The notes under the pieces were generated by a model that was given only the letters and a program-made list of their open reading frames with translations, ran no database searches and had not been told where the DNA came from. 64,000 nt of DNA. Source: Thermoplasmatales archaeon (GTDB lineage Archaea > Thermoplasmatota > Thermoplasmata > Thermoplasmatales > Thermoplasmataceae). Positions 69 to 41,220 of the stretch are shown one piece after another. Every line of letters starts with the position of its first letter. The first letter of the stretch is position 1. The stretch lies in the NCBI GenBank assembly GCA_027310185.1, contig DAIDBH010000018.1, positions 192,001 through 256,000 of the forward strand. Reading direction: 5' to 3'. The position numbers and the translations under genes were made by a program.

Positions 69-334
69 TTTATCACCTAAACCCATATTATTAGAATGTT
101 ATTTAACGTTTGTGAGCTATATTAATTTTGGGCAGGAAGTCATTGTGGATTCAATAAACTCGGGAGGAATCGGGAATTAAAAGCTACATAAATAAAACCA
201 TAAACACACTTATCCAGAGTTATTACATCAACATAGAAATAGCAAAACTAAAATCGCACTTTTCCTGATGCGTTTTGGATGATAACTATAAAAGATTGTT
301 GATATATTTTTAACTCATAATGTAATATGGGAAC

Positions 335-1351
335 ATGAAAGGATCCTCTGACAAGGTTTTAGACAGAAAAGGTATAGGGGAATTCGTCAGCACTCTTGTA
401 AGGCAACTCAAATATAGAAGGGATGATTTCAAGGTAATTGGCCCAAGCGGAGGATTTACATCTCTGATCGATCTTGGAAACATTGCGCTTGCTTTTAATA
501 CCGATGGGGTTGGAACCAAGGTTTTGTTAGCTGCAGAGGCAAATAAATGGGAAGGGATAGGCATAGATTGTGTGGCAATGAATGTTAATGATACAATAAC
601 AATTGGGGCAGAGCCAATCGCTATGGTGGATTATATATCGCTTAAGGACACCGATGTAAATATCGCAAAGGAAATTGGTGTGGGTCTCAATGTAGGCGCC
701 CAAATGGCAAACATTTCTATTGTTGGAGGTGAAACTGCCCTCATTCCAGATCTTGTAAGAGACATTGATGTTTCAGGCTCAGTGATCGGTATAGCTCAAA
801 AAAACCAGATAACTACGGGCGAAACAATAAAAGATGGGGATCTTGTATACAGTTTACAGAGTAGCGGCCTTCACTCAAATGGTTTTACAACTGTCAGGAA
901 AATTATAAAAGAACAGGGTCTAGGAATGGATGAAACATTTCCGGGGTACAACAGGAAAGTATCAGATGTTTTACTGGAACCAACCAGGATATATGTTAGA
1001 GAAATTCTTGATATAATCAATCTTGTTGATATAAAGGGTATGGCAAATATTACAGGAGGTGGCTTCAAGAACCTTGTGAGAATGAAGGATATGAAATATG
1101 TCATAGACGATCCCGTCGAGCCCCAACCAGTTTTCACCGGATTAATGGACCTTGGAAACCTGTCTTATTCTGAAATGTATGAAATTTTTAACATGGGAAC
1201 AGGTTACGTAGTTGTTATTGACGCCGACAGTAAGCATGATTTCGTAAGCACGCTAAGGAATCGTGTATCCATAAGGGAAATCGGGCACATAGAAAATGGA
1301 TCAGGCATTGAGATACCGAAATATGGTGTGAGCCTGAAGGATTACTATTAA
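335..1351 (+). CDS. purM: Phosphoribosylformylglycinamidine cyclo-ligase (AIR synthetase)
   Basis: TDGVGTK, DCVAMNVND, GGETA, SSGLHSNGF and FNMGTG motifs. Confidence 0.95.
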   Translation: MKGSSDKVLDRKGIGEFVSTLVRQLKYRRDDFKVIGPSGGFTSLIDLGNIALAFNTDGVGTKVLLAAEANKWEGIGIDCVAMNVNDTITIGAEPIAMVDYISLKDTDVNIAKEIGVGLNVGAQMANISIVGGETALIPDLVRDIDVSGSVIGIAQKNQITTGETIKDGDLVYSLQSSGLHSNGFTTVRKIIKEQGLGMDETFPGYNRKVSDVLLEPTRIYVREILDIINLVDIKGMANITGGGFKNLVRMKDMKYVIDDPVEPQPVFTGLMDLGNLSYSEMYEIFNMGTGYVVVIDADSKHDFVSTLRNRVSIREIGHIENGSGIEIPKYGVSLKDYY

Positions 1352-1367
1352 TTTCCCACCACTAATT

Positions 1368-2714
1368 TTAATCAATTGACTTTTCTCCTTCTCCAATGAA
1401 TTTTTTATAAACTGAAAGTGATTTCTCTCTCATTTCTTTGTATGTCAATTCCGGTCTTCTATACCTATTGCATTTCCCTTCATTCATATGTTCAGGGTCA
1501 TGGATGGATTCAACAGGGCAGTCACTCAATTCTTCAACCCATTTCCTGATGAATTTTCCTTCCGGATCTATTTCAGCGCCATTCTTCAATGGATTATAGA
1601 TCCTGAAGTATGCCCATGAAAAGTCAGAGCAGCCGCTGACCCATTGCCAGGATGAATAATTGTTCGCCTCGTCTGCGTCCACCAGAGTATCCATGAACCA
1701 TTCTGCACCATATGTCCATTTTATACGATCCAGCTTCGTCAGGAAATCAGATACTAATAGGCGCTTCCTGTTATCAATCCACCCTGTTTGCCAGAGTTTT
1801 CTCATGATGGCATCAATTATAGGGAAACCTGTTTTCCCCTCCTTCCAGTCGATCAGATCTTTCCATTGTCCAGACCATGGAAAACTGTCCATCCTTCTAT
1901 TTATTGATAATATGCCACTATCTGGCCTTCTCGCATAGGAACAATAGAAAAACTCTCTCCATAGAAGATTTCTTTTAATTATACCAACTTCCTCATCTTC
2001 GCCTCTGGAAATTATCCCCCAAAGGTTCCTGATATTTATCTGTCCATGCCTTATATAAGGAGAAAGTCCAGCACTTTCATTTTCCAGACCACCTTCCATC
2101 AACCTCTCAACAGCCATGCTTCCAGCCTCCTCACCAGTATTCCAGTATTTTGCCAAATTCCTTTCCCACGATGAAAATTCTATTTTCCTGTTTATGACAT
2201 TGGTCTCACTAAACTCAGGTAAATCTTCAGTATATCCCTCATCAAGATCAAATTTCATATCCATTGCAGATCTGTAGAACTGTTTGAAATTTTCAAAATT
2301 GATCTTCATATTCATAATCATTTCATCGGATAGCAGATTATTGGGTTGACACATCTTAGCTTCCACACCCCTGCTTATAAAATATTCATGAATTTCTCCA
2401 AAAGCATTTCTTACTCTAGCATAGGGCACGGACTGGGAAACTATTCTTTCAATTCTGTTAGTGACTATAATTTCTTTCAGAACGGGTATATAATCTCCCG
2501 AACTCTCAACAATGGGTATTCTCTCTATTCCAAATTTATGTGCCAGATCTATGAGACTGCTCTTTACCCACCAAAGGCTTGCTCCACTCAGTTTTTCAAT
2601 TTTCGGATCCTTTAGAAAAATTGGGAAGATTATGTCATTTCTTTCTGCTGCTTCTTCAAGAACCTTGTTATCATGTATCCTCAGGTCATGTGAGAGAATG
2701 TAAAGAGTACGCAC
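1368..2714 (-). CDS. phr: Deoxyribodipyrimidine photolyase / cryptochrome family protein
   Basis: N-terminal HDLRIHDN; LSPYIRHGQI, LLWREF, GKTGFPIIDA.MRKLWQTGW, WFMDTLVDAD.ANNYSSWQW and YFRIYNP FAD-binding motifs. Confidence 0.9.
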   Translation of the reverse strand: MRTLYILSHDLRIHDNKVLEEAAERNDIIFPIFLKDPKIEKLSGASLWWVKSSLIDLAHKFGIERIPIVESSGDYIPVLKEIIVTNRIERIVSQSVPYARVRNAFGEIHEYFISRGVEAKMCQPNNLLSDEMIMNMKINFENFKQFYRSAMDMKFDLDEGYTEDLPEFSETNVINRKIEFSSWERNLAKYWNTGEEAGSMAVERLMEGGLENESAGLSPYIRHGQINIRNLWGIISRGEDEEVGIIKRNLLWREFFYCSYARRPDSGILSINRRMDSFPWSGQWKDLIDWKEGKTGFPIIDAIMRKLWQTGWIDNRKRLLVSDFLTKLDRIKWTYGAEWFMDTLVDADEANNYSSWQWVSGCSDFSWAYFRIYNPLKNGAEIDPEGKFIRKWVEELSDCPVESIHDPEHMNEGKCNRYRRPELTYKEMREKSLSVYKKFIGEGEKSID

Positions 2715-2772
2715 ATTATGGTTATAAAGGAATGATTAATAAAGTTAATAAATCAATTTGGCATGGACATCT

Positions 2773-3123
2773 ATGAAGGTTATAGCAGTAGTCGACGAAG
2801 AAGACGTATTAACTCCTCTGGAGTATGGTAATACAATTGTGGAGATAGATACAGAGACAAAGCAGAAGAAATTCTATGAAAATCCCGGCTTCGGTTCTCC
2901 GTTTCAGGGAAAGGAACGAGCAATGGCTGGAATTCTGACACTTAACGCAGATGCAATTATCGTGAAGGAAGGTGTTCTCTGCCCAGGATCGTACATGATG
3001 TCCAAGGGAAAAATGAAATATATCCCGGTAGAAGAAGAGAAATTACAGGAGATTGAGCCAAAGCTCAACGATATTGCAAAGAAAGCAACTCCTGAACTTG
3101 ATTTCAATATATACAGGGAATAA
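2773..3123 (+). CDS. Hypothetical protein, NifB/NifX (FeMo-cofactor-binding)-like fold
   Basis: MKVIAV...ENPGF...ADAIIV...CPGSY pattern resembles NifX-like small proteins. Start moved to the ATG at 2773. Confidence 0.55.
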   Translation: MKVIAVVDEEDVLTPLEYGNTIVEIDTETKQKKFYENPGFGSPFQGKERAMAGILTLNADAIIVKEGVLCPGSYMMSKGKMKYIPVEEEKLQEIEPKLNDIAKKATPELDFNIYRE

Positions 3124-34863: not shown

Positions 34864-35235
34864 ATGGCATTAATTGGAAAAAAAGGACAAAAAGAACAGG
34901 ATTTGGATGATACAATAGAATATCTGGACCTTCAGGACTACCGGTTTGACACATCTCAGGAAAATGGAAGCCTGAAGTCCATAAAAGTGGTCGATGTAGA
35001 AAGGGCTGATCATGTGTCAAGAGCAGCTAAACTGGCTTACCAAAAAAATATTGTAATCATAGACATCAGCAACGCCAATAAGGACCCAAACAATACAAAC
35101 CAGATTGATGTATCCATTAGGAAGCTTGTAAAGGATATCAACGGTGATTTTGGAAAGCTTGGTGAATTCTATTATATCATAACACCATCTGACGTTTTCC
35201 TTGATAAGAAAAAGGTCAGGGACGATTATATCTAG
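34864..35235 (+). CDS. sepF: Cell division protein SepF-like
   Basis: EYLDL N-terminus, IKVVDV, NIVIIDI, DINGD and YIITP.DV...K pattern of archaeal SepF. Confidence 0.7.
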   Translation: MALIGKKGQKEQDLDDTIEYLDLQDYRFDTSQENGSLKSIKVVDVERADHVSRAAKLAYQKNIVIIDISNANKDPNNTNQIDVSIRKLVKDINGDFGKLGEFYYIITPSDVFLDKKKVRDDYI

Positions 35236-35327
35236 ATTTATTGCTAAACTTATTTATTATAAGAAATAATTCTTAATTCGTGAAATTGGAGTTCAGTTTT
35301 ATTATTAGGCGTTTCCTTTATTAAATT

Positions 35328-35670
35328 GGTTCTCTTCAGTTTATTGTGGGTAACTTCAATCCACCTGTCACAAGATATCTGATCGTATCCCTGTATTCAT
35401 TAGTTCTGAAGCCATAGGAACGCTTGAATGCAGTTTTGATCTGTTGTTTAATCCCTCTACGACAGCTGAATTGATGCCTGTTCTTATGGCTTCCATGATG
35501 CCATCAATATGTCTCTTCATTGTTTTTCCAGGCTTTACAACAATATCCTTCATTCTTGATCGTACTGCCCATGATATTCATTTTTTCACATACTCTTCAG
35601 CAAATGTTACGTTCGGGATCGATAATCTCTGCAACGCAATCTTGAAGTGAAGAGATCCATTTCCTTTAAA
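35328..35670 (-). mobile_element. ISL3-family insertion sequence, 3' remnant with right terminal IR
   Basis: Frameshifted translation ...FKIALQR...W.VRSRMK...KTMKRHIDGIMEAIRTGINSAVVEGLNN/IKTAFKRSYGFRT.EY...I.YLVTGGL.LPT matches the ISL3 C-terminus. It ends at a GGTTCTCTTCA terminus at 35328 (plus strand). Confidence 0.8.
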
Positions 35671-36148
35671 TCACATAATAGACCATTGAACTTTTCTGAA
35701 TTTTATTCCTTTTATTAGCTATTTTACTGATTATGGTAGTGTATGTGTTTGAATGAATATTACATACATTGCAAGGCTATATGAATACTGTACCAGACTG
35801 GGAAATGAAATACAAACCATGCTGTGTCATTACTCAGTGTGAAAAGCAATTACTATGCTTACTTGCACCGGAACACAATTCAAGAAGTATATACATATTG
35901 AGGACAATATCCAGAATCTGTTTTCTGCAACAAGAACAATGCCAACATTCGTAGGTGTATAACTAGGATTAATAAGGAATGTTTCTGAAAATGGCAAAAG
36001 GCCTGATGTAAGATCTGAAAACTGTTCCTGTAATATTATATATAAAAGCTTGGGTTAAGAATTAAATTTTCATTCATGGAAAAAACAAATTTGGATATAT
36101 TAGTATTTAAGGTTAAATAAAAAATAATTTTGATTTCCATATGTTGAT

Positions 36149-36409
36149 TCATTGATTACTCTCTAACCCTATGAAAACTGCTAGTTTCTTGAGCAGAAAA
36201 ATGATAATCTGCATTATAAGTGCAACAACTGAAAATACAAATGCAATGTATGACATTGCCCCTTCCCACTGAATTGCTGACCCAAATGCTGTGAGATCGG
36301 TAGGCGTAATTGATGCTAATATGTCCAGATAAATTAGATAAAAAACCACTATTGCAATCACATTAATTAAAAGACCAACATACACACCATTTAATTTAAT
36401 TCTCGCCAT
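36149..36409 (-). CDS. Small hypothetical membrane protein (2 TM)
   Basis: Intact 86-aa ORF with two hydrophobic helices, sitting between IS remnants. Confidence 0.6.
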   Translation of the reverse strand: MARIKLNGVYVGLLINVIAIVVFYLIYLDILASITPTDLTAFGSAIQWEGAMSYIAFVFSVVALIMQIIIFLLKKLAVFIGLESNQ

Positions 36410-37388
36410 GAACGCTACTTAATCAAAATGTATATCTTATATTTTTCTATGATCACTCCCTAGATATCATGAAGTCAAACAGTAATACTCAAATTTATTG
36501 TACAGGAAATAAAGAAGAGCACAAGTAAAATAGTAACAATACAAACACATAGAAACTTCTATGTTGGTACAATTAATTTATCGAACATAAGGCGGATGAT
36601 GAAATCAGATTTATCCATGATTCTTGAGGAGAGATAAAATGAAAAAGCTCGAAAGGTGTATTGAAAGCATGTAATACATTTTTAGTCTCAATAGATACTG
36701 GCAAGAAGGAAAACAAAGCAACTTGCATAGCACCCGAATGGTTGGAGAAGGAAGGATTCAAGTTTTCCATGAATATGGGAGATACGCTGAAGTTGCAAGG
36801 CAGATGCCGCCTGGGGCAAAAATAGCATTCGAAGTATCCGTATCTGCATATGCAGTATTCAAACCTCTGAGAGATTTGGCGTAGTCAGAAACAACAGTGG
36901 CTCATCTAAAGCAACTTTCATGGCCAACAAAATCAAAGAAGAAAGACAGGGTTGATTCCGTTAAACTCGTGAAAATGGATTTCGTGGACATGATACGAGA
37001 ATCCCATCTTCTTGAGGAGGATAAGAGGATATTTTGTCATTTCCCATTCGTAGGGGTAGGCTTGTAAAGTCTATCTAATTTTTTATGATACACCTATAGA
37101 TACCAGTGATAATTTTTCTGAGAAGAGGAGAAAAGTAATAAATGAGATTATGTTAAACAACCAGAAATGTCTTGTCCTTAAAACAATGCTAGACAGACTT
37201 GAATTCTTTGAGAAGCATAGCATTTCACCAGAAAGAGAAATATGAGGGGAAGCCAGAGAAACCGAAGATGTTAAGCTCCTCATGTGAATGCCCTGAATAG
37301 ATTACTATCTTGCACCTCTCCTTTCATCCTACGTTGGAAATGTGAAGAGATTTGAAACCAGTGTTAAACTTGCTTCATTCTTCGGCAA

Positions 37389-37982
37389 TTAACAAGCGGT
37401 AATCCTGCAACAGCAAATAAGAAACTTGACCAAATCATGGAAAGTACCGATCTTACGATCAACACGGGAAAGAGCCGTATAGTCAAGCACAAGAAAGTTT
37501 TTGTTTTCTTAGGCTTCAAGTTTGTGAGACAGTATTCCTCATGAAAAAGTGGGAGGTGACCAGATGGGTCCCCTGCCAGTTAATCCGAACTGAAGATACG
37601 CAACAACATGCACAACTTGAGGAGAAAACAGTGCTCAATCACTAACAACGCCATAGGAGGGAATAGGAAACACTCATCTCCATACCGATGGGATGGAGTA
37701 ACTAATTCGTCCACAGTCCCGTATCCAAATCGTTTTTAGATGTATGGAACTATGCACAAAGTAGATTGTTGTATATGTACCGCTACTATCACAACATACA
37801 ACGCAAATCAAAAACCAAAGACATTCCAAACCATATACTTTCCATCATTAACGCTATACCATCTACATTTCTAGGAAAATACCTAATCTCATATCATGAA
37901 AGCAGTAGGTAGCCGGTTGTGGAAATCAATCAGTCCGGTTAAAAGAGCAAGTTCCTGGTAGTTTCAGAGCTTTCCTCCCAAT
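37389..37982 (+). mobile_element. Group II intron, 3' half (decayed RT/maturase plus domains V and VI)
   Basis: Translation LTSG...LDQIMESTDLTINTGKSRIV...FVFLGFKF resembles RT6-7 and LISIPMGWSN*F....SKSFLDVWNYAQSRL..MYR resembles maturase domain X. Domain V AGCCGGTTGTGGAAATCAATCAGTCCGGTT is at 37911-37940, followed by a DVI-like hairpin ending in AT at ~37982. Confidence 0.78.
37911..37940 (+). ncRNA. Group II intron catalytic domain V (degenerate)
   Basis: AGC triad; AGCCGG pairs with CCGGTT; inner TTG/CAA stem around a GAAA-containing loop with a 3' bulge; lies directly after the maturase-like reading frame. Confidence 0.72.
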
Positions 37983-38640
37983 TTTAAGATGATAAAGCTC
38001 ACTAGGATGATATTCACTATGCTTATGGAACTAATGGAGTGTAAGTATGAAAGTTACGCATTAATTCAGGACAAGATATCAAAGCTGGAGGAGACATGAA
38101 ATGCCCTGATAAACGAGATATCTCACATGGATTTTACACACAAGATTGACTCATGAACCCTTTTTAGTGAGGGCCAGTATCTGTCTTCTCTGTATTAGCA
38201 GATCGTATAATTGAATATTATGCGTGTTTGCGAAAAGGCAGAGGGAGGAACTCCCGTTCCAGGTTCCCAAGAATATTACAACAAGTGAAAGAGATTAAAA
38301 ATATAACAAAAGAGGACGTAGCTGAGAATTTACATGAGTGACGGCAATCATTAAAGTAATTACCAAAAAATTATGAAATGTCAATTTTTCAAATACACGA
38401 ATGTATCCACTAATGAATATATGTTCTGGAGGTCGCACAGCACTCACGTAAAAGTGGAATTATATCATTCTTTAACTACGCGAAAGTTCGAAGAGCAAAA
38501 AACATATTATCTCAACGAAAAATGAGCGACACAAGGACTCTCAAAACATTTTCTAGGAAATTGAATTTAATAATCAACATATATAAATGTTCATAGTCGA
38601 GGGAAATGGTTTATATAACATGATAAGCATACGCACGATA

Positions 38641-41220
38641 ATGAATAAAAAGAAGTTTGTCATAGCTATGGTCTTCTCTTTGCTCATGCTGGGTTCGGCA
38701 TTTGCCATATCCGCATTAGCTTCAGGAGGATCTCAGATTGTTTTAACTGGAGGCCAAAGTGGGCCAGTTCTTAATGGTGAACCGAGCACATCTACAAGTT
38801 CAACGCCTTGGAGTATGCCGACAACCACCATGCAGGAACCAAGCTACACGAACGGAACGTTTAAAATGGGTATCGACTGTAATGTGAATTCGTTAAATCC
38901 ATTCCAAGAGACAACTTATTGTGATGCCTATGTCGTGGAAGAACTCTATGACGGGTTATATAACACACTGCCAAATGGACATGTTGTTCCATGGCTTGCA
39001 ACCAATTATTCTGTACAGCACGTAACCTCAAACAACCAGACGTACGATTTGCTGACTAACACAACAGTGAACTACTCATACGTATATACGATACATCTAA
39101 GGCCTTATGTTCAGTGGACTGACTGGACTCCAGCAAATGCCTCACAGACATACACATTCTCAAACGTGCTGCACTATTACTATAACGGAAACATGACAAC
39201 GCACGTATACAAATCCTACAAGAACACAACAATGAAGAAATATTACCTGCAGTCAGGTGATGTAGTCCAGTCCTTTAGAATGCAGCAATCATGCGGAGAT
39301 TGGCCAAATGTTGTGAGTGTTGTGCCGGACGGGAATCTAAGCGTTAAAGTTTTTGTTTCTTCGCAAACCCTGTTGCTATTTACGAGCGACTTCGAGAACA
39401 ATGTACTACCTTACCACATATGGATAAAACATGACTTTACATCTGTAAATGGGTTGTATAACTACACACCTGGACTAACATCAGGTAATGGATGGTATGA
39501 CTGGAACATGGGATGGAACACAGCTACTGGAAGATCACCGGGATCAGTTGGTACTGGGCCATTTATGGTACAGAATAGTTATGGAATGCCACAAGGTGCA
39601 ATAATACCAAGCCATGTTGAAACAATGTACGTAAATCCACACTACTTTGTGCAATATGCAAACAAAACAAGTGGACTCAGACAGTACACTCCAAAGATAT
39701 ATGAGATAGATGAACCGTTCTACAGTTCAGAATCCTCGATGATAGCAGCATATCAGAAAGGTCAGATAGACACGACTTCATCAGCACCGACTCCAAACTT
39801 CCTGCCCCAGATTCAATCAACGCCAGGCTCTTACATATATCACAAGACCTCCAGTGCATATGGTTACCTAAGGTTAAACACAAGAGTAGCACCTATGAAT
39901 GTAACTGCATTTAGACAGGCGCTGAACTATGCCACGCCAACAGCATACATAGCCAGTGCAATTAGCGATGGATATGCAATTCTGTCGTCCGACCCAGTAA
40001 ACCCTGGGAACACATTGTATTATAACTCATCGTCTCCCCTCTACACCCTTAACATGGCAAAAGCGAAAAGCCTCATAAACTCAATACCTGGGATGGACAA
40101 CGTCTCTGGAACATTGGAATACTACGGAAAGCCAGTTTCACTGACCATACAAACTACCGTTGGTTCAGTCGCACCAGACAACATAGAGGGAATTGATGCT
40201 ACGGAGAAATACTGGAATCAACTTGGAATATCCGTAACCCTGAAGGAAGAAGCGTTTACAACACTCATATCAAACATTGACGGAACAATATCATCTAACA
40301 ACAACCTGTACCAGATAGGCGATCTCGGAATCAGTACTCCTATAGGCGATCCAGCTCTTGATTGCCGTGTTTCCCTCAACCCAAAATATGGTATACCGAC
40401 CGGCAGCTATGTAGGGCCATTTTCTAGCATGACAGTTAATGGAAAGTTACTCAATGGGACGCAGGTACAGGATCTGTTCAATAACATAACAGCAAAAATA
40501 GTCAGTTCAGACTCACTTCCAAATGCAGAAAAGGAAGTTAAATATCTTCAGACTCTAATGATTCAACAGGCAACAATGATCAACCTTGGATATTTTGTCG
40601 ACCTCATACCAGAACAAACAAACGGATTCACTAACTACTCTCACACGAACGCGGATGCATCATATCTTTACTGGTACTGGCAGTTCTTTTCATTAGAGCA
40701 CACCAAATCAGCTGCGGTCAAGTATCCGTACTACCTCACAGTTAAAGCAACTGTAAGCTCTGGTACAACTCAGTACGACAATGAAACATCTACAATTTCC
40801 TTTACCGTATTGAATGGAACGACGCCTGTATCTGGAGCAACAGTCTTAGTTGGAATATCAGCTACATATGGTGGTATATTCAACATAACTTCAACAAATC
40901 TTGTCACCAATTCCAACGGAGTGGCAAATTTCGAATATGAAGTGAAGGATTTGAACAATTTGCTTGAAACTACTAACAGCACTGGGGCTGTAGTCCACAT
41001 TGGATCGGAGGATGTGAATATCACTGGTATCGCAGAAATTCCTCACTCAACTACAGTTGGATCAGGAAACGCGACAGTTGAACTGACACTAATGCCAAAC
41101 AAACCAGTGTCAACATCAACTCCCACATTGGATTACATAGCAGTTGGAGTAGTTGTGGCTGTTGTTGTCATAGCTGGAGTAGCCTTTGCAATAATGAGAA
41201 AATCAAAGGTAAAATCCTAA
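38641..41220 (+). CDS. dppA: ABC transporter substrate-binding protein (peptide/DppA-OppA family), C-terminally anchored
   Basis: Signal peptide, SLNPF, LYDGL....PWLA, VGTGPF, FRQALNYA, S/T-rich linker, C-terminal TM plus RKSK. Confidence 0.88.
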   Translation: MNKKKFVIAMVFSLLMLGSAFAISALASGGSQIVLTGGQSGPVLNGEPSTSTSSTPWSMPTTTMQEPSYTNGTFKMGIDCNVNSLNPFQETTYCDAYVVEELYDGLYNTLPNGHVVPWLATNYSVQHVTSNNQTYDLLTNTTVNYSYVYTIHLRPYVQWTDWTPANASQTYTFSNVLHYYYNGNMTTHVYKSYKNTTMKKYYLQSGDVVQSFRMQQSCGDWPNVVSVVPDGNLSVKVFVSSQTLLLFTSDFENNVLPYHIWIKHDFTSVNGLYNYTPGLTSGNGWYDWNMGWNTATGRSPGSVGTGPFMVQNSYGMPQGAIIPSHVETMYVNPHYFVQYANKTSGLRQYTPKIYEIDEPFYSSESSMIAAYQKGQIDTTSSAPTPNFLPQIQSTPGSYIYHKTSSAYGYLRLNTRVAPMNVTAFRQALNYATPTAYIASAISDGYAILSSDPVNPGNTLYYNSSSPLYTLNMAKAKSLINSIPGMDNVSGTLEYYGKPVSLTIQTTVGSVAPDNIEGIDATEKYWNQLGISVTLKEEAFTTLISNIDGTISSNNNLYQIGDLGISTPIGDPALDCRVSLNPKYGIPTGSYVGPFSSMTVNGKLLNGTQVQDLFNNITAKIVSSDSLPNAEKEVKYLQTLMIQQATMINLGYFVDLIPEQTNGFTNYSHTNADASYLYWYWQFFSLEHTKSAAVKYPYYLTVKATVSSGTTQYDNETSTISFTVLNGTTPVSGATVLVGISATYGGIFNITSTNLVTNSNGVANFEYEVKDLNNLLETTNSTGAVVHIGSEDVNITGIAEIPHSTTVGSGNATVELTLMPNKPVSTSTPTLDYIAVGVVVAVVVIAGVAFAIMRKSKVKS

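What the first reader, a model, noticed from the sequence alone, without database searches (positions are those of the whole stretch)
36616..38340. Nested element: group II intron inserted inside an IS110-family (RNA-guided recombinase) transposase gene
Seen in sequence: IS110 transposase homology stops at KLASFFG (~37386) and resumes immediately after the intron's 3' end as M(I)KLTRMIFTML...KYE...KISKL* (37989-38099), the conserved 'RKL..iif.mL' C-terminal helix. The intron 3' junction therefore sits in the tnp coding sequence just before RKL. A later deletion seems to have removed the 5' intron half and the adjacent tnp segment, including the SG/catalytic-Ser region. Inference: the intron targets a conserved site in IS110 transposases. 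An intact composite could need splicing to express the recombinase and would spread the intron by IS110 mobility, coupling two RNA-guided systems. Introns in IS genes are known in bacteria; I do not know of this pairing in Thermoplasmatales.
Basis: partly seen in the sequence, partly recalled or inferred. Interest (0 to 1): 0.75.

Follow-up and report, generated by a model that had tools for sequence, protein, structure and literature searches.

The report
Dead intron fragment inside dead IS110
A long-dead IS110-type jumping gene in a Thermoplasmata archaeon carries the tail end of an equally dead group II intron, an ordinary molecular fossil and not a working partnership between the two elements.

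Summary
Window 36628-38340 is one decayed IS110-family element. Its transposase reading frame matches an intact 364-aa relative up to residue 264 (ends 37386) and again from residue 329 (starts 37989).

In between, 37388-37982 is the 3' quarter of a group II intron, on the same strand. It holds the RT/maturase C-terminus and a degraded domain V-VI.

Sixty-four transposase codons, including the catalytic-Ser stretch, are missing, and so are about 1.4 kb of 5' intron. Both remnants are full of stops and frameshifts. The intron remnant lacks domains I-III, has a damaged domain V, and has lost the branch adenosine. Nothing here can splice or transpose.

The idea that the intron targets a conserved IS110 site is not supported:
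- 22 of 22 site-spanning copies of this IS subfamily in the 169 genomes of the order searched are uninterrupted.
- None of the RT matches outside this genome lies in an IS110 gene.
- 0 of 80 metagenomic relatives are nested in IS110.
- 6 of 6 related introns have unrelated 3' exons.

Two sister genomes lack the whole block. Independent metagenome contigs carry the same relic.

Verdict: an ordinary nested relic of low interest.

The parts
36628..37387 (+). IS110-family transposase pseudogene, 5' part (equivalent to residues ~1-264 of an intact 364-aa relative). It has at least 2 frame changes and 4 in-frame stops in the aligned parts, a stop 11 codons after the ATG at 36640, and a ~41-nt deficit between residues 133 and 163.
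   Evidence: DNA match to G088:C43 from window 36628. tblastn pieces 36661-36771, 36783-37034 and 37081-37386. Weak PF02371 match at 37273-37386 (18.2 bits, below the 21.3 cut-off, 2 TGA inside). The IS left end (~85 nt upstream of the start in intact copies) is not detectable: nhmmer with a 7-copy profile gave no hit at E<=100.
37381..37397 (+). 5' breakpoint zone. This stretch aligns both to the IS110 reference and to the intron RT reference, so the breakpoint cannot be placed more finely. It is possibly a junction at microhomology.
   Evidence: Local alignments: IS110 (G088:C48) homology runs to 37397, and RT (G053:C54) homology starts at 37381. The blastn ranges overlap at query 789-798.
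37388..37912 (+). Group II intron RT/maturase pseudogene, C-terminal part only (equivalent to residues 223-391 of the G053:C54 RT). It has one frameshift and 6 in-frame stops.
   Evidence: tblastn 37389-37610 (53% identity, E 9e-18) and 37484-37879 (39% identity, E 2e-21). blastn 69% identity over 530 aligned columns to L014. The reference RT carries RVT_1 and GIIM.
37909..37982 (+). Degraded intron domain V and domain VI, with the 3' end of the intron at 37980-37982. The AGC triad and the lower helix of domain V are kept. The upper helix carries 1 deletion and 3 substitutions against the relatives. The branch-point A of domain VI is a C.
   Evidence: 7-way alignment with six relatives whose domain V-VI is matched by Rfam RF00029. 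blastn to L029 across its domain V-VI, E 1.3e-10. No Rfam match in the window at E<=10. The fold is not better than shuffles, z -0.49.
37983..37988 (+). Six nucleotides (TTTAAG) of unassigned origin between the intron end and the clear IS homology. They are in frame with the tnp tail, but only 2 of 6 match the TCCACC of the closest intact copy.
   Evidence: Alignments.
37989..38099 (+). IS110 transposase C-terminal tail (equivalent to residues 329-363 plus the stop): M(I)KLTRMIFTML...KISKLEET*.
   Evidence: tblastn 63% identity, E 1.4e-8. 6-way DNA alignment with relatives.
38100..38340 (+). IS 3' non-coding region and right end (...TTTACATGAGTG). It is homologous to a ~240-250-nt structured RNA region conserved in intact copies, a bridge/seek-RNA candidate.
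   Evidence: 10-way alignment: similarity among copies stops at 38340. Consensus structure of 49 pairs, 92.8% of cells paired against 27-48% in slid controls, 28 pairs with compensatory change.

Best explanation
This is a molecular fossil of two nested mobile elements. An IS110-family insertion sequence (about 1.43 kb when intact) landed in the spacer between a small membrane-protein gene and a solute-binding-protein gene. A group II intron without an endonuclease domain, of a lineage resident in this archaeal order, then entered the sense strand of the transposase gene, two to three codons upstream of the conserved C-terminal M-R-K-L helix.

Only the last ~595 nt of a ~2.0-kb intron are present: the RT C-terminus/maturase and domains V-VI. 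They abut transposase codon 264, so 64 transposase codons (including the catalytic-Ser stretch) and ~1.4 kb of 5' intron are missing. Two routes give this structure. Either a later deletion spanned the 5' exon-intron junction, or the copy was already 5'-truncated when it integrated, through incomplete cDNA joined at microhomology. I cannot separate the two.

Both remnants then decayed neutrally. Nothing in the block can now splice, reverse-transcribe or recombine.

Shown: the nesting, the colinearity, the missing parts, the decay, the absence of the block from sister genomes, and the identical relic in other metagenomes. Inferred: the order of events and the way the truncation arose.
For: (1) One IS, split. 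Both IS pieces are on the + strand and colinear. Both are closest to the same copy, G088:C48, at 76% and 75% DNA identity. Intact copies have 181-209 bp where the window has 592 bp. Protein residues 8-264 and 329-363 are matched.

(2) The insert is homologous to bona fide introns. The reference RT has RVT_1 and GIIM, and a related 436-aa RT has group II intron RTs as its top solved-structure matches. RF00029 domain V-VI matches lie directly after the ORF in relatives. A full-length relative (L155) has a 5' GTGCG, an RF02005 D1-D4 match (44.3 bits, below the 49-bit gathering score; a second relative, L027, scores 70 bits), a 436-aa ORF and domain V-VI, about 2027 nt in total.

(3) Decay. Stops and frameshifts are found in both parts. 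There is no Rfam or Pfam intron signal in the window or in the genome. Domain V is damaged and the branch A is lost.

(4) The whole block is an insertion. Two sister genomes (flanking DNA 80-89% identical) have 236 bp where the window has 2129 bp.

(5) It is not an assembly artefact, and it is found in other samples. Contigs of three other studies span 36300-38657, 36683-38657 and 36769-38376 with 5, 3 and 3 differences, and no contig skips the insert.

(6) 3'-terminal intron remnants are common in the order. Of 42 RT matches outside this genome, 12 loci internal to contigs hold only the C-terminal part, with start residues between 203 and 349, against 4 that hold only the N-terminal part. 7 of 13 such loci that I fetched keep an RF00029 match at E<0.001.
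Against: The exact 3' insertion point is uncertain by 6-8 nt (37981-37988 unassigned).

The IS left end is undetectable, so the left boundary is known only from where similarity to the coding part begins (DNA match from 36628).

The nearest intron relative is only 69% identical, and the first metagenome scan found no close relative. The source lineage of this intron is therefore unsampled and its target rules are unknown.

The order 'IS first, intron second' rests on topology (IS-intron-IS) alone.
Confidence: 0.85

Rival explanations
1. Site-specific partnership. This intron lineage homes to a conserved site in IS110 transposase genes, as RmInt1 does in ISRm2011-2, and the window holds a decayed survivor of that association.
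For: The intron is in the sense orientation inside the coding sequence, next to the most conserved C-terminal helix. Introns that home into IS transposase genes exist (PMC4238363, passages read). The source lineage of this intron is unsampled, with a best relative at 69% identity, so its own target preference is untested.
Against: 22 of 22 site-spanning copies of this IS subfamily (14 full-length and 8 partial, at 56% protein identity or more) are uninterrupted in the 169 genomes of the order (83 weaker matches were not listed). None of the 42 RT matches outside this genome is next to such an IS; the nearest case is G096:C32, 2.7 kb from a 30%-identical IS110 gene. 0 of 80 metagenomic RT relatives are nested in IS110; one, L134, has a distant IS110-like gene 1.3 kb upstream. 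6 of 6 relatives have unrelated 3' exons. 17 of 17 genomes of the genus show no second composite.
Confidence: 0.06
2. Chance juxtaposition. A 3'-truncated IS110 copy, an unrelated intron fragment and a 5'-truncated second IS110 copy were brought together by separate insertions or rearrangements in an IS-rich spacer.
For: The spacer is an IS graveyard: an ISL3 transposase relic lies 1 kb upstream. About 800 bp at 35235-36160 are also extra relative to the sister genomes. Fragmentary IS110 and intron remnants are common in the order.
Against: The two IS pieces are on the same strand, in the right order, and non-overlapping. Together they make one element minus 192 nt. Both are nearest to the same reference copy at the same identity, 75-76%. 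The intron fragment ends with its own 3' terminus 6-8 nt from where IS homology resumes, which is what an insertion produces and a random break does not.
Confidence: 0.06
3. Assembly chimera: the IS-intron junctions were created by mis-joining repeats in a metagenome-assembled genome.
For: The genome is in 19 contigs, and IS110 copies sit at contig ends elsewhere.
Against: Independent contigs from three other studies bridge both junctions at more than 99.7% identity (X6 record 19, X5 record 14, X12 record 4).
Confidence: 0.01

Closest known systems
RmInt1 group II intron inside the transposase gene of ISRm2011-2 (Sinorhizobium meliloti)
   Same: A group II intron in the sense orientation within the coding region of an insertion-sequence transposase. 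In principle, splicing would be needed for the IS to be mobile (PMC4238363, abstract and passages read). From recall, not checked in a call: RmInt1 also lacks an endonuclease domain.
   Different: RmInt1 occupies the same site in many IS copies and is active. Here there is a single occurrence, both elements are dead, the IS is of the IS110 family (a serine/DEDD recombinase with a structured 3' RNA), the host is an archaeon, and no recurrent targeting was found.
Fragmented or 5'-truncated bacterial group II intron remnants
   Same: Loss of the 5' ribozyme and of part of the RT, with the 3' end retained. Search listings state that introns evolve toward inactive forms by fragmentation (PMC4496777, PMC4181065; abstract starts only).
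   Different: Here the truncation is coupled to the loss of 64 codons of the host IS gene. The junction lies in a stretch similar to both partners.
Archaeal group II introns that nest in other mobile elements
   Same: The lineage lacks an endonuclease domain (391-436-aa RTs). One relative, L027, sits directly before domain VI of another intron. A preprint reports that group II introns occur across archaeal supergroups (10.1101/2024.12.10.627823, section 7 read). The Methanosarcina pattern of homing into other introns is recalled, not read here.
   Different: That preprint does not contain the words Thermoplasmat-, transposase or IS110. The host element here is an IS110-family IS.
IS110/IS1111-family bridge (seek) RNA-guided recombinases
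   Same: The host IS has the DEDD and Transposase_20 domains and a conserved structured non-coding RNA region with covariation.
   Different: Whether that RNA guides recombination was not tested. In the window the recombinase gene lacks its catalytic-Ser region. That the RNA sits 3' of the gene in IS1111-type elements is recalled, not taken from a call.

Membership tests
IS110-family insertion sequence | N-terminal DEDD (RuvC-like) domain, PF01548 | tested here: inconclusive
   tblastn to an intact relative that carries PF01548 matches residues 8-133 at 46-60% identity. The Pfam model itself lists 4 places in the genome and none is in the window.
IS110-family insertion sequence | C-terminal Transposase_20 domain, PF02371, with the catalytic serine | tested here: not met
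   Only model positions 2-39 are present (18.2 bits, below the cut-off). Residues 265-328 of the reference, which include the ...TSTKDSST... stretch, are absent. That the catalytic serine lies in this stretch is inferred from knowledge of the family.
IS110-family insertion sequence | Open transposase reading frame | tested here: not met
   At least 2 frame changes, at least 5 stops and two deletions.
IS110-family insertion sequence | Element ends shared with other copies | tested here: inconclusive
   The right end is conserved up to 38340 in a 10-way alignment. The left-end profile gives no hit.
Group II intron | Intron-encoded RT with maturase (X) domain | tested here: inconclusive
   Only the C-terminal 163 residues are recognisable, through a relative, and they carry stops. 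Pfam RVT_1 and GIIM find nothing in the genome.
Group II intron | Domain V (AGC triad, two helices, bulge) and domain VI with a bulged branch adenosine | tested here: not met
   A homologous remnant is present, but the upper helix of domain V is damaged and the branch A is replaced by C. There is no RF00029 match at E<=10.
Group II intron | 5' GUGYG and domains I-III (with the exon-binding sites) | tested here: not met
   IS110 sequence abuts RT residue 223 directly. There is no D1-D4 match. A full-length relative has these parts.
Intron-IS homing partnership (RmInt1 / ISRm2011-2 type) | The same site is occupied in several independent IS copies | tested here: not met
   0 of 22 site-spanning copies of the subfamily in 169 genomes. 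0 further composites in 17 genomes of the genus.
Intron-IS homing partnership (RmInt1 / ISRm2011-2 type) | Related introns share the IS-derived flanking exons | tested here: not met
   6 of 6 relatives have unrelated 3' exons. 0 of 80 metagenomic relatives are nested in IS110.
Intron-IS homing partnership (RmInt1 / ISRm2011-2 type) | EBS1/EBS2 of the intron pair with the IS target | not testable with these tools
   Domain I of this copy is deleted, and the nearest relatives are only 65-69% identical.
Bridge/seek RNA of IS110-family elements | Conserved structured RNA in a non-coding end of the IS | tested here: met
   49 pairs, 92.8% of cells paired, 28 pairs with compensatory change, 0 of 500 shuffles as high, slid controls 9 or fewer.
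Bridge/seek RNA of IS110-family elements | Loops complementary to the target and donor sequences | not tested
   Not examined.

The most novel reading that the evidence does not exclude
The relic is the last trace of an archaeal counterpart of RmInt1/ISRm2011-2. On this reading, a Thermoplasmata group II intron lineage once homed into the codons just before the C-terminal helix of an IS1111-like, RNA-guided recombinase gene, upstream of its 3' structured RNA. IS mobility then depended on splicing, and the intron rode on the IS.
Probability: 0.05. Interest if true: 0.6.

Novelty: new member of a known kind. Interest (0 to 1): 0.2.

Why it matters
It matters little on its own. It is a clean example of a nested, doubly inactivated mobile-element fossil in an acid-mine Thermoplasmata genome. 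It shows that introns of this archaeal order do enter IS genes, and that their 3'-terminal remnants are frequent.

Two by-products may be more useful than the finding itself:
- Intact copies of this IS subfamily carry a ~240-nt covarying 3' RNA, a bridge/seek-RNA candidate in archaea.
- A full-length ~2.0-kb intron exists in a related genome (L155).

Tried and rejected
Rfam on the window, at gathering thresholds and at E<=10 over 35200-38700, gave no intron family. It gave only sub-threshold C/D-box sRNA matches at 36592-36644.

Pfam on the small ORFs of the insert at E<=10 gave only chance-level matches (Deltaretro_Tax, Nuc_N, NapE). I rejected them.

Folding 37880-37995 gave nothing better than shuffles.

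tblastn with the genome's own three IS110 proteins confirmed the 5' part. For the tail it gave only E 5.8, because those proteins are too distant. This was resolved with the subfamily protein.

Own-genome DNA search: the block is single-copy.

The first metagenome scan, with the 68-aa RT stretch of the window, matched 220 patterns but found no relative.

Mapping the empty site in the sister genomes to the base failed, because the AT-rich spacer is too diverged. I claim only the size difference.

The IS left-end profile gave no hit.

RNA evidence. Contigs of one RNA library (X19), from a sample that may be the source of this DNA, cover 36468-37028 and 37173-37971. By the tool's own caution this does not show transcription. 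The parts without cover say nothing. No joint across the insert was seen. A single low-depth contig joint at 36773/36893 in X5 (side 26) was disregarded as probably from another organism.

EBS/IBS pairing was not attempted, because domain I is deleted here and the relatives are too distant.

Literature. Searches (3 terms, 10 papers; 6 papers; 41 papers, 25 listed): from titles and abstract starts alone, none describes an intron inside an IS110 gene. I did not open those papers, so this is a weak negative. Supplementary files were not consulted; supplementary figures 2-3 of 10.1101/2024.12.10.627823 may list Thermoplasmata introns.

I did not use structure prediction, complex prediction, the search for homologous proteins, the search of protein representatives or the protein-atlas search. 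The question did not need them.
Full report
**What is in the sequence.** No long ORF exists between 36410 and 38587 on either strand. The three forward frames show broken pieces of two protein families. Rfam finds no intron in the window at gathering thresholds or at E<=10 over 35200-38700. In the whole 1.88-Mb genome (G000, 19 contigs, 99.5% complete), Pfam RVT_1 and GIIM find nothing. PF02371 gives only a sub-threshold match at window 37273-37386, with 18.2 bits and 2 TGA inside. PF01548 does not list the window. The block is single-copy in the genome. Everything below therefore rests on relatives.

**The IS110 part.** A DNA search of 100 related genomes found homologues of 36628-37397 and, separately, of 37989-38243. 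In G088:C48 and G017:C1 these two parts are colinear and only 181 and 209 bp apart, against 592 bp in the window. An intact 364-aa transposase of this subfamily (L038:1199-2293:-) carries PF01548 and PF02371. With tblastn it matches:
- residues 8-44, 49-133 and 163-264 at window 36661-37386 (46-60% identity; frames change twice; four in-frame stops);
- residues 329-363 at 37989-38093 (63% identity, E 1.4e-8).

Residues 265-328 (192 nt, including the ...TSTKDSST... stretch where the family's catalytic serine is expected) are absent. About 41 nt are also missing between residues 133 and 163. A 10-way alignment of intact copies places the right end of the IS at 38340. The left end, about 85 nt upstream of the start codon in intact copies, is not detectable with a profile.

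**The insert.** Window 37388-37910 is 69% identical to G053:C54. There the homologous DNA is the 3' half of an open 391-aa ORF with RVT_1 (E 6e-41) and GIIM (E 1e-8). An Rfam RF00029 domain V-VI match follows that ORF directly. The same ORF-then-domain-V-VI arrangement is seen in five other loci and four more. A related 436-aa RT has group II intron RTs as its best solved-structure matches (E 2e-59 to 3e-57).

One relative, L155, is a complete intron. It has a 5' GTGCG, an RF02005 D1-D4 match (44.3 bits, below that model's 49-bit gathering score; a second relative, L027, scores 70 bits), the ORF and domain V-VI, about 2027 nt in total.

The window matches RT residues 223-385 with one frameshift and six stops. 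Its 37909-37982 aligns column by column with the relatives' domains V and VI (blastn E 1.3e-10 to L029 across domain V-VI). In the window:
- the AGC triad and the lower helix of domain V survive;
- the upper helix has one deletion and three substitutions;
- the branch-point A is a C;
- domains I-III and the 5' splice site are absent.

**The junctions.**
Unambiguous IS homology restarts at the ATG at 37989. The six bases TTTAAG between them are in frame, but only 2 of 6 match the closest intact IS. The insertion point therefore lies within codons 326-328, two to three codons before M-R-K-L.
- 5' side: 37381-37397 aligns to both the IS and the RT references. The breakpoint cannot be placed more finely, and a junction at microhomology is plausible but not shown.

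**Is it real and is it old?** Two sister genomes, whose flanking DNA is 80-89% identical, have a 236-bp spacer where the window has 2129 bp. They lack the whole block. Contigs from three other studies of mine drainage or tailings metagenomes carry the same relic, both junctions included, with 3-5 differences. No contig skips the insert. So it is not an assembly artefact, and in the samples laid only this form was seen. The number of disabling mutations says that both elements have long been dead.

**Is there a partnership?**
- In the 169 genomes of the order, the RT query gave 42 matches outside this genome, in 25 genomes.
- The IS110 query gave matches in 78 genomes (83 weaker matches were not listed).
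- No RT match lies in or beside an IS of this subfamily. The nearest case is 2.7 kb from a 30%-identical IS110 gene on G096:C32.
- All 22 listed copies of the subfamily that span residues 265-329 (14 full-length, 8 partial) are uninterrupted.
- None of the other 16 genomes of the genus has a second composite.
- Of 80 metagenomic RT relatives, none is nested in an IS110 gene. One, L134, a distant RT, has an IS110-like gene 1.3 kb upstream.
- The 3' exons of six related introns are unrelated to IS110 and to each other. One of those introns sits before domain VI of another intron.

The caveat is that the closest relative is only 69% identical, and a scan for closer ones found none. The target preference of this particular lineage therefore remains unknown.

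**How the structure arose.** Two routes fit.
- (a) A full-length intron inserted, and a deletion of about 1.6 kb (~1.4 kb of 5' intron plus the 192 nt of tnp) later spanned the 5' exon-intron junction.
- (b) The copy was already 5'-truncated at integration, with loss of upstream target DNA, as happens when cDNA synthesis is incomplete.

Remnants that keep only the 3' part are frequent in this order. There are 12 such loci internal to contigs, with start residues spread from 203 to 349, against 4 that keep only the N-terminal part. 7 of 13 fetched loci still carry a recognisable domain V-VI. This bias is compatible with (b) but does not prove it. Search listings on bacterial introns describe decay by fragmentation (PMC4496777, PMC4181065; abstract starts only).

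**Comparison with what is known.** An intron in the coding region of an IS transposase, making IS mobility depend on splicing, is established for RmInt1 in ISRm2011-2 (PMC4238363, abstract and passages). Group II introns are reported across archaeal supergroups (10.1101/2024.12.10.627823, section 7). That text does not mention Thermoplasmata, transposases or IS110. Searches for 'group II intron' with 'IS110' listed no paper that describes this pairing, judged from titles and abstract starts only. The pairing may therefore be unreported, but here it is a single dead instance. It is a new member of a known kind.

**Verdict.** Interest is low (0.2).

Noticed in passing
window 38100-38340; intact copies L038:948-1198(-), L042:2086-2325, L041:2021-2260, L015:1354-1600, L040:716-962(-), L023:2413-2659, L043:2003-2245, L044:721-987(-), L045:2089-2329: This IS110 subfamily carries a ~240-267-nt conserved non-coding region 3' of the transposase gene, with a covarying structure: 49 pairs, 92.8% of cells paired against 27-48% in slid controls, 28 pairs with compensatory change, 0 of 500 shuffles as high. 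It is a bridge/seek-RNA candidate in Thermoplasmata. A short inverted match links the left end (TAAAATCTC) and the right end (GAGATTTTA).
   Followed up: partly
window 35235-36160: About 800 bp are extra relative to two sister genomes. The stretch holds an ISL3-family transposase relic (35368-35553, minus strand, PF01610 E 3e-5). The spacer after the SepF-like gene (34864-35235) is an IS graveyard.
   Followed up: partly
L027 (G058:C8) about 1165-2070: A group II intron with an RF02005 D1-D4 match and an internally deleted RT ORF. It is followed directly by domain VI of a second intron, so one intron is nested in another.
   Followed up: no
L155 (G019:C16) 171-2197, minus strand: An apparently complete ~2027-nt group II intron without an endonuclease domain: 5' GTGCG, D1-D4 match, open 436-aa RT/maturase, domain V-VI. 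It is a usable reference for this archaeal lineage.
   Followed up: partly
L014 (G053:C54) 1212-2883 and L022/L156 (G011:C1): Both loci have full RT ORFs followed by domain V-VI, but no recognisable domains I-III upstream. Only ~410 nt (after a tRNA gene) and ~130 nt (after an IstB-like gene) are available there. They may be 5'-truncated copies that keep an open RT gene.
   Followed up: partly
order-wide RT matches; loci L157-L169: 3'-terminal intron remnants (RT C-terminus with or without domain V-VI) outnumber 5' remnants by 12 to 4 loci, with scattered truncation points. Three of the fetched loci (L161, L163, L166), and also L014, have a tRNA gene within about 0.5 kb.
   Followed up: partly
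window 36592-36644: A C-box-like GGATGATGA motif gives sub-threshold Rfam matches to archaeal C/D-box sRNAs (sR41 E 1.5, sR2 E 2.3). The sister genomes have a similar GGGGGATGATGA...CTGA motif in their short spacer. It could be a native small RNA at the IS left boundary, or chance.
   Followed up: no
L134 (metagenome contig) 522-3085: A distant group II RT (51% identical over residues 39-196 of the query) lies 1.3 kb downstream of an IS110-like gene. It is the only IS110 neighbour among the 80 metagenomic loci.
   Followed up: no
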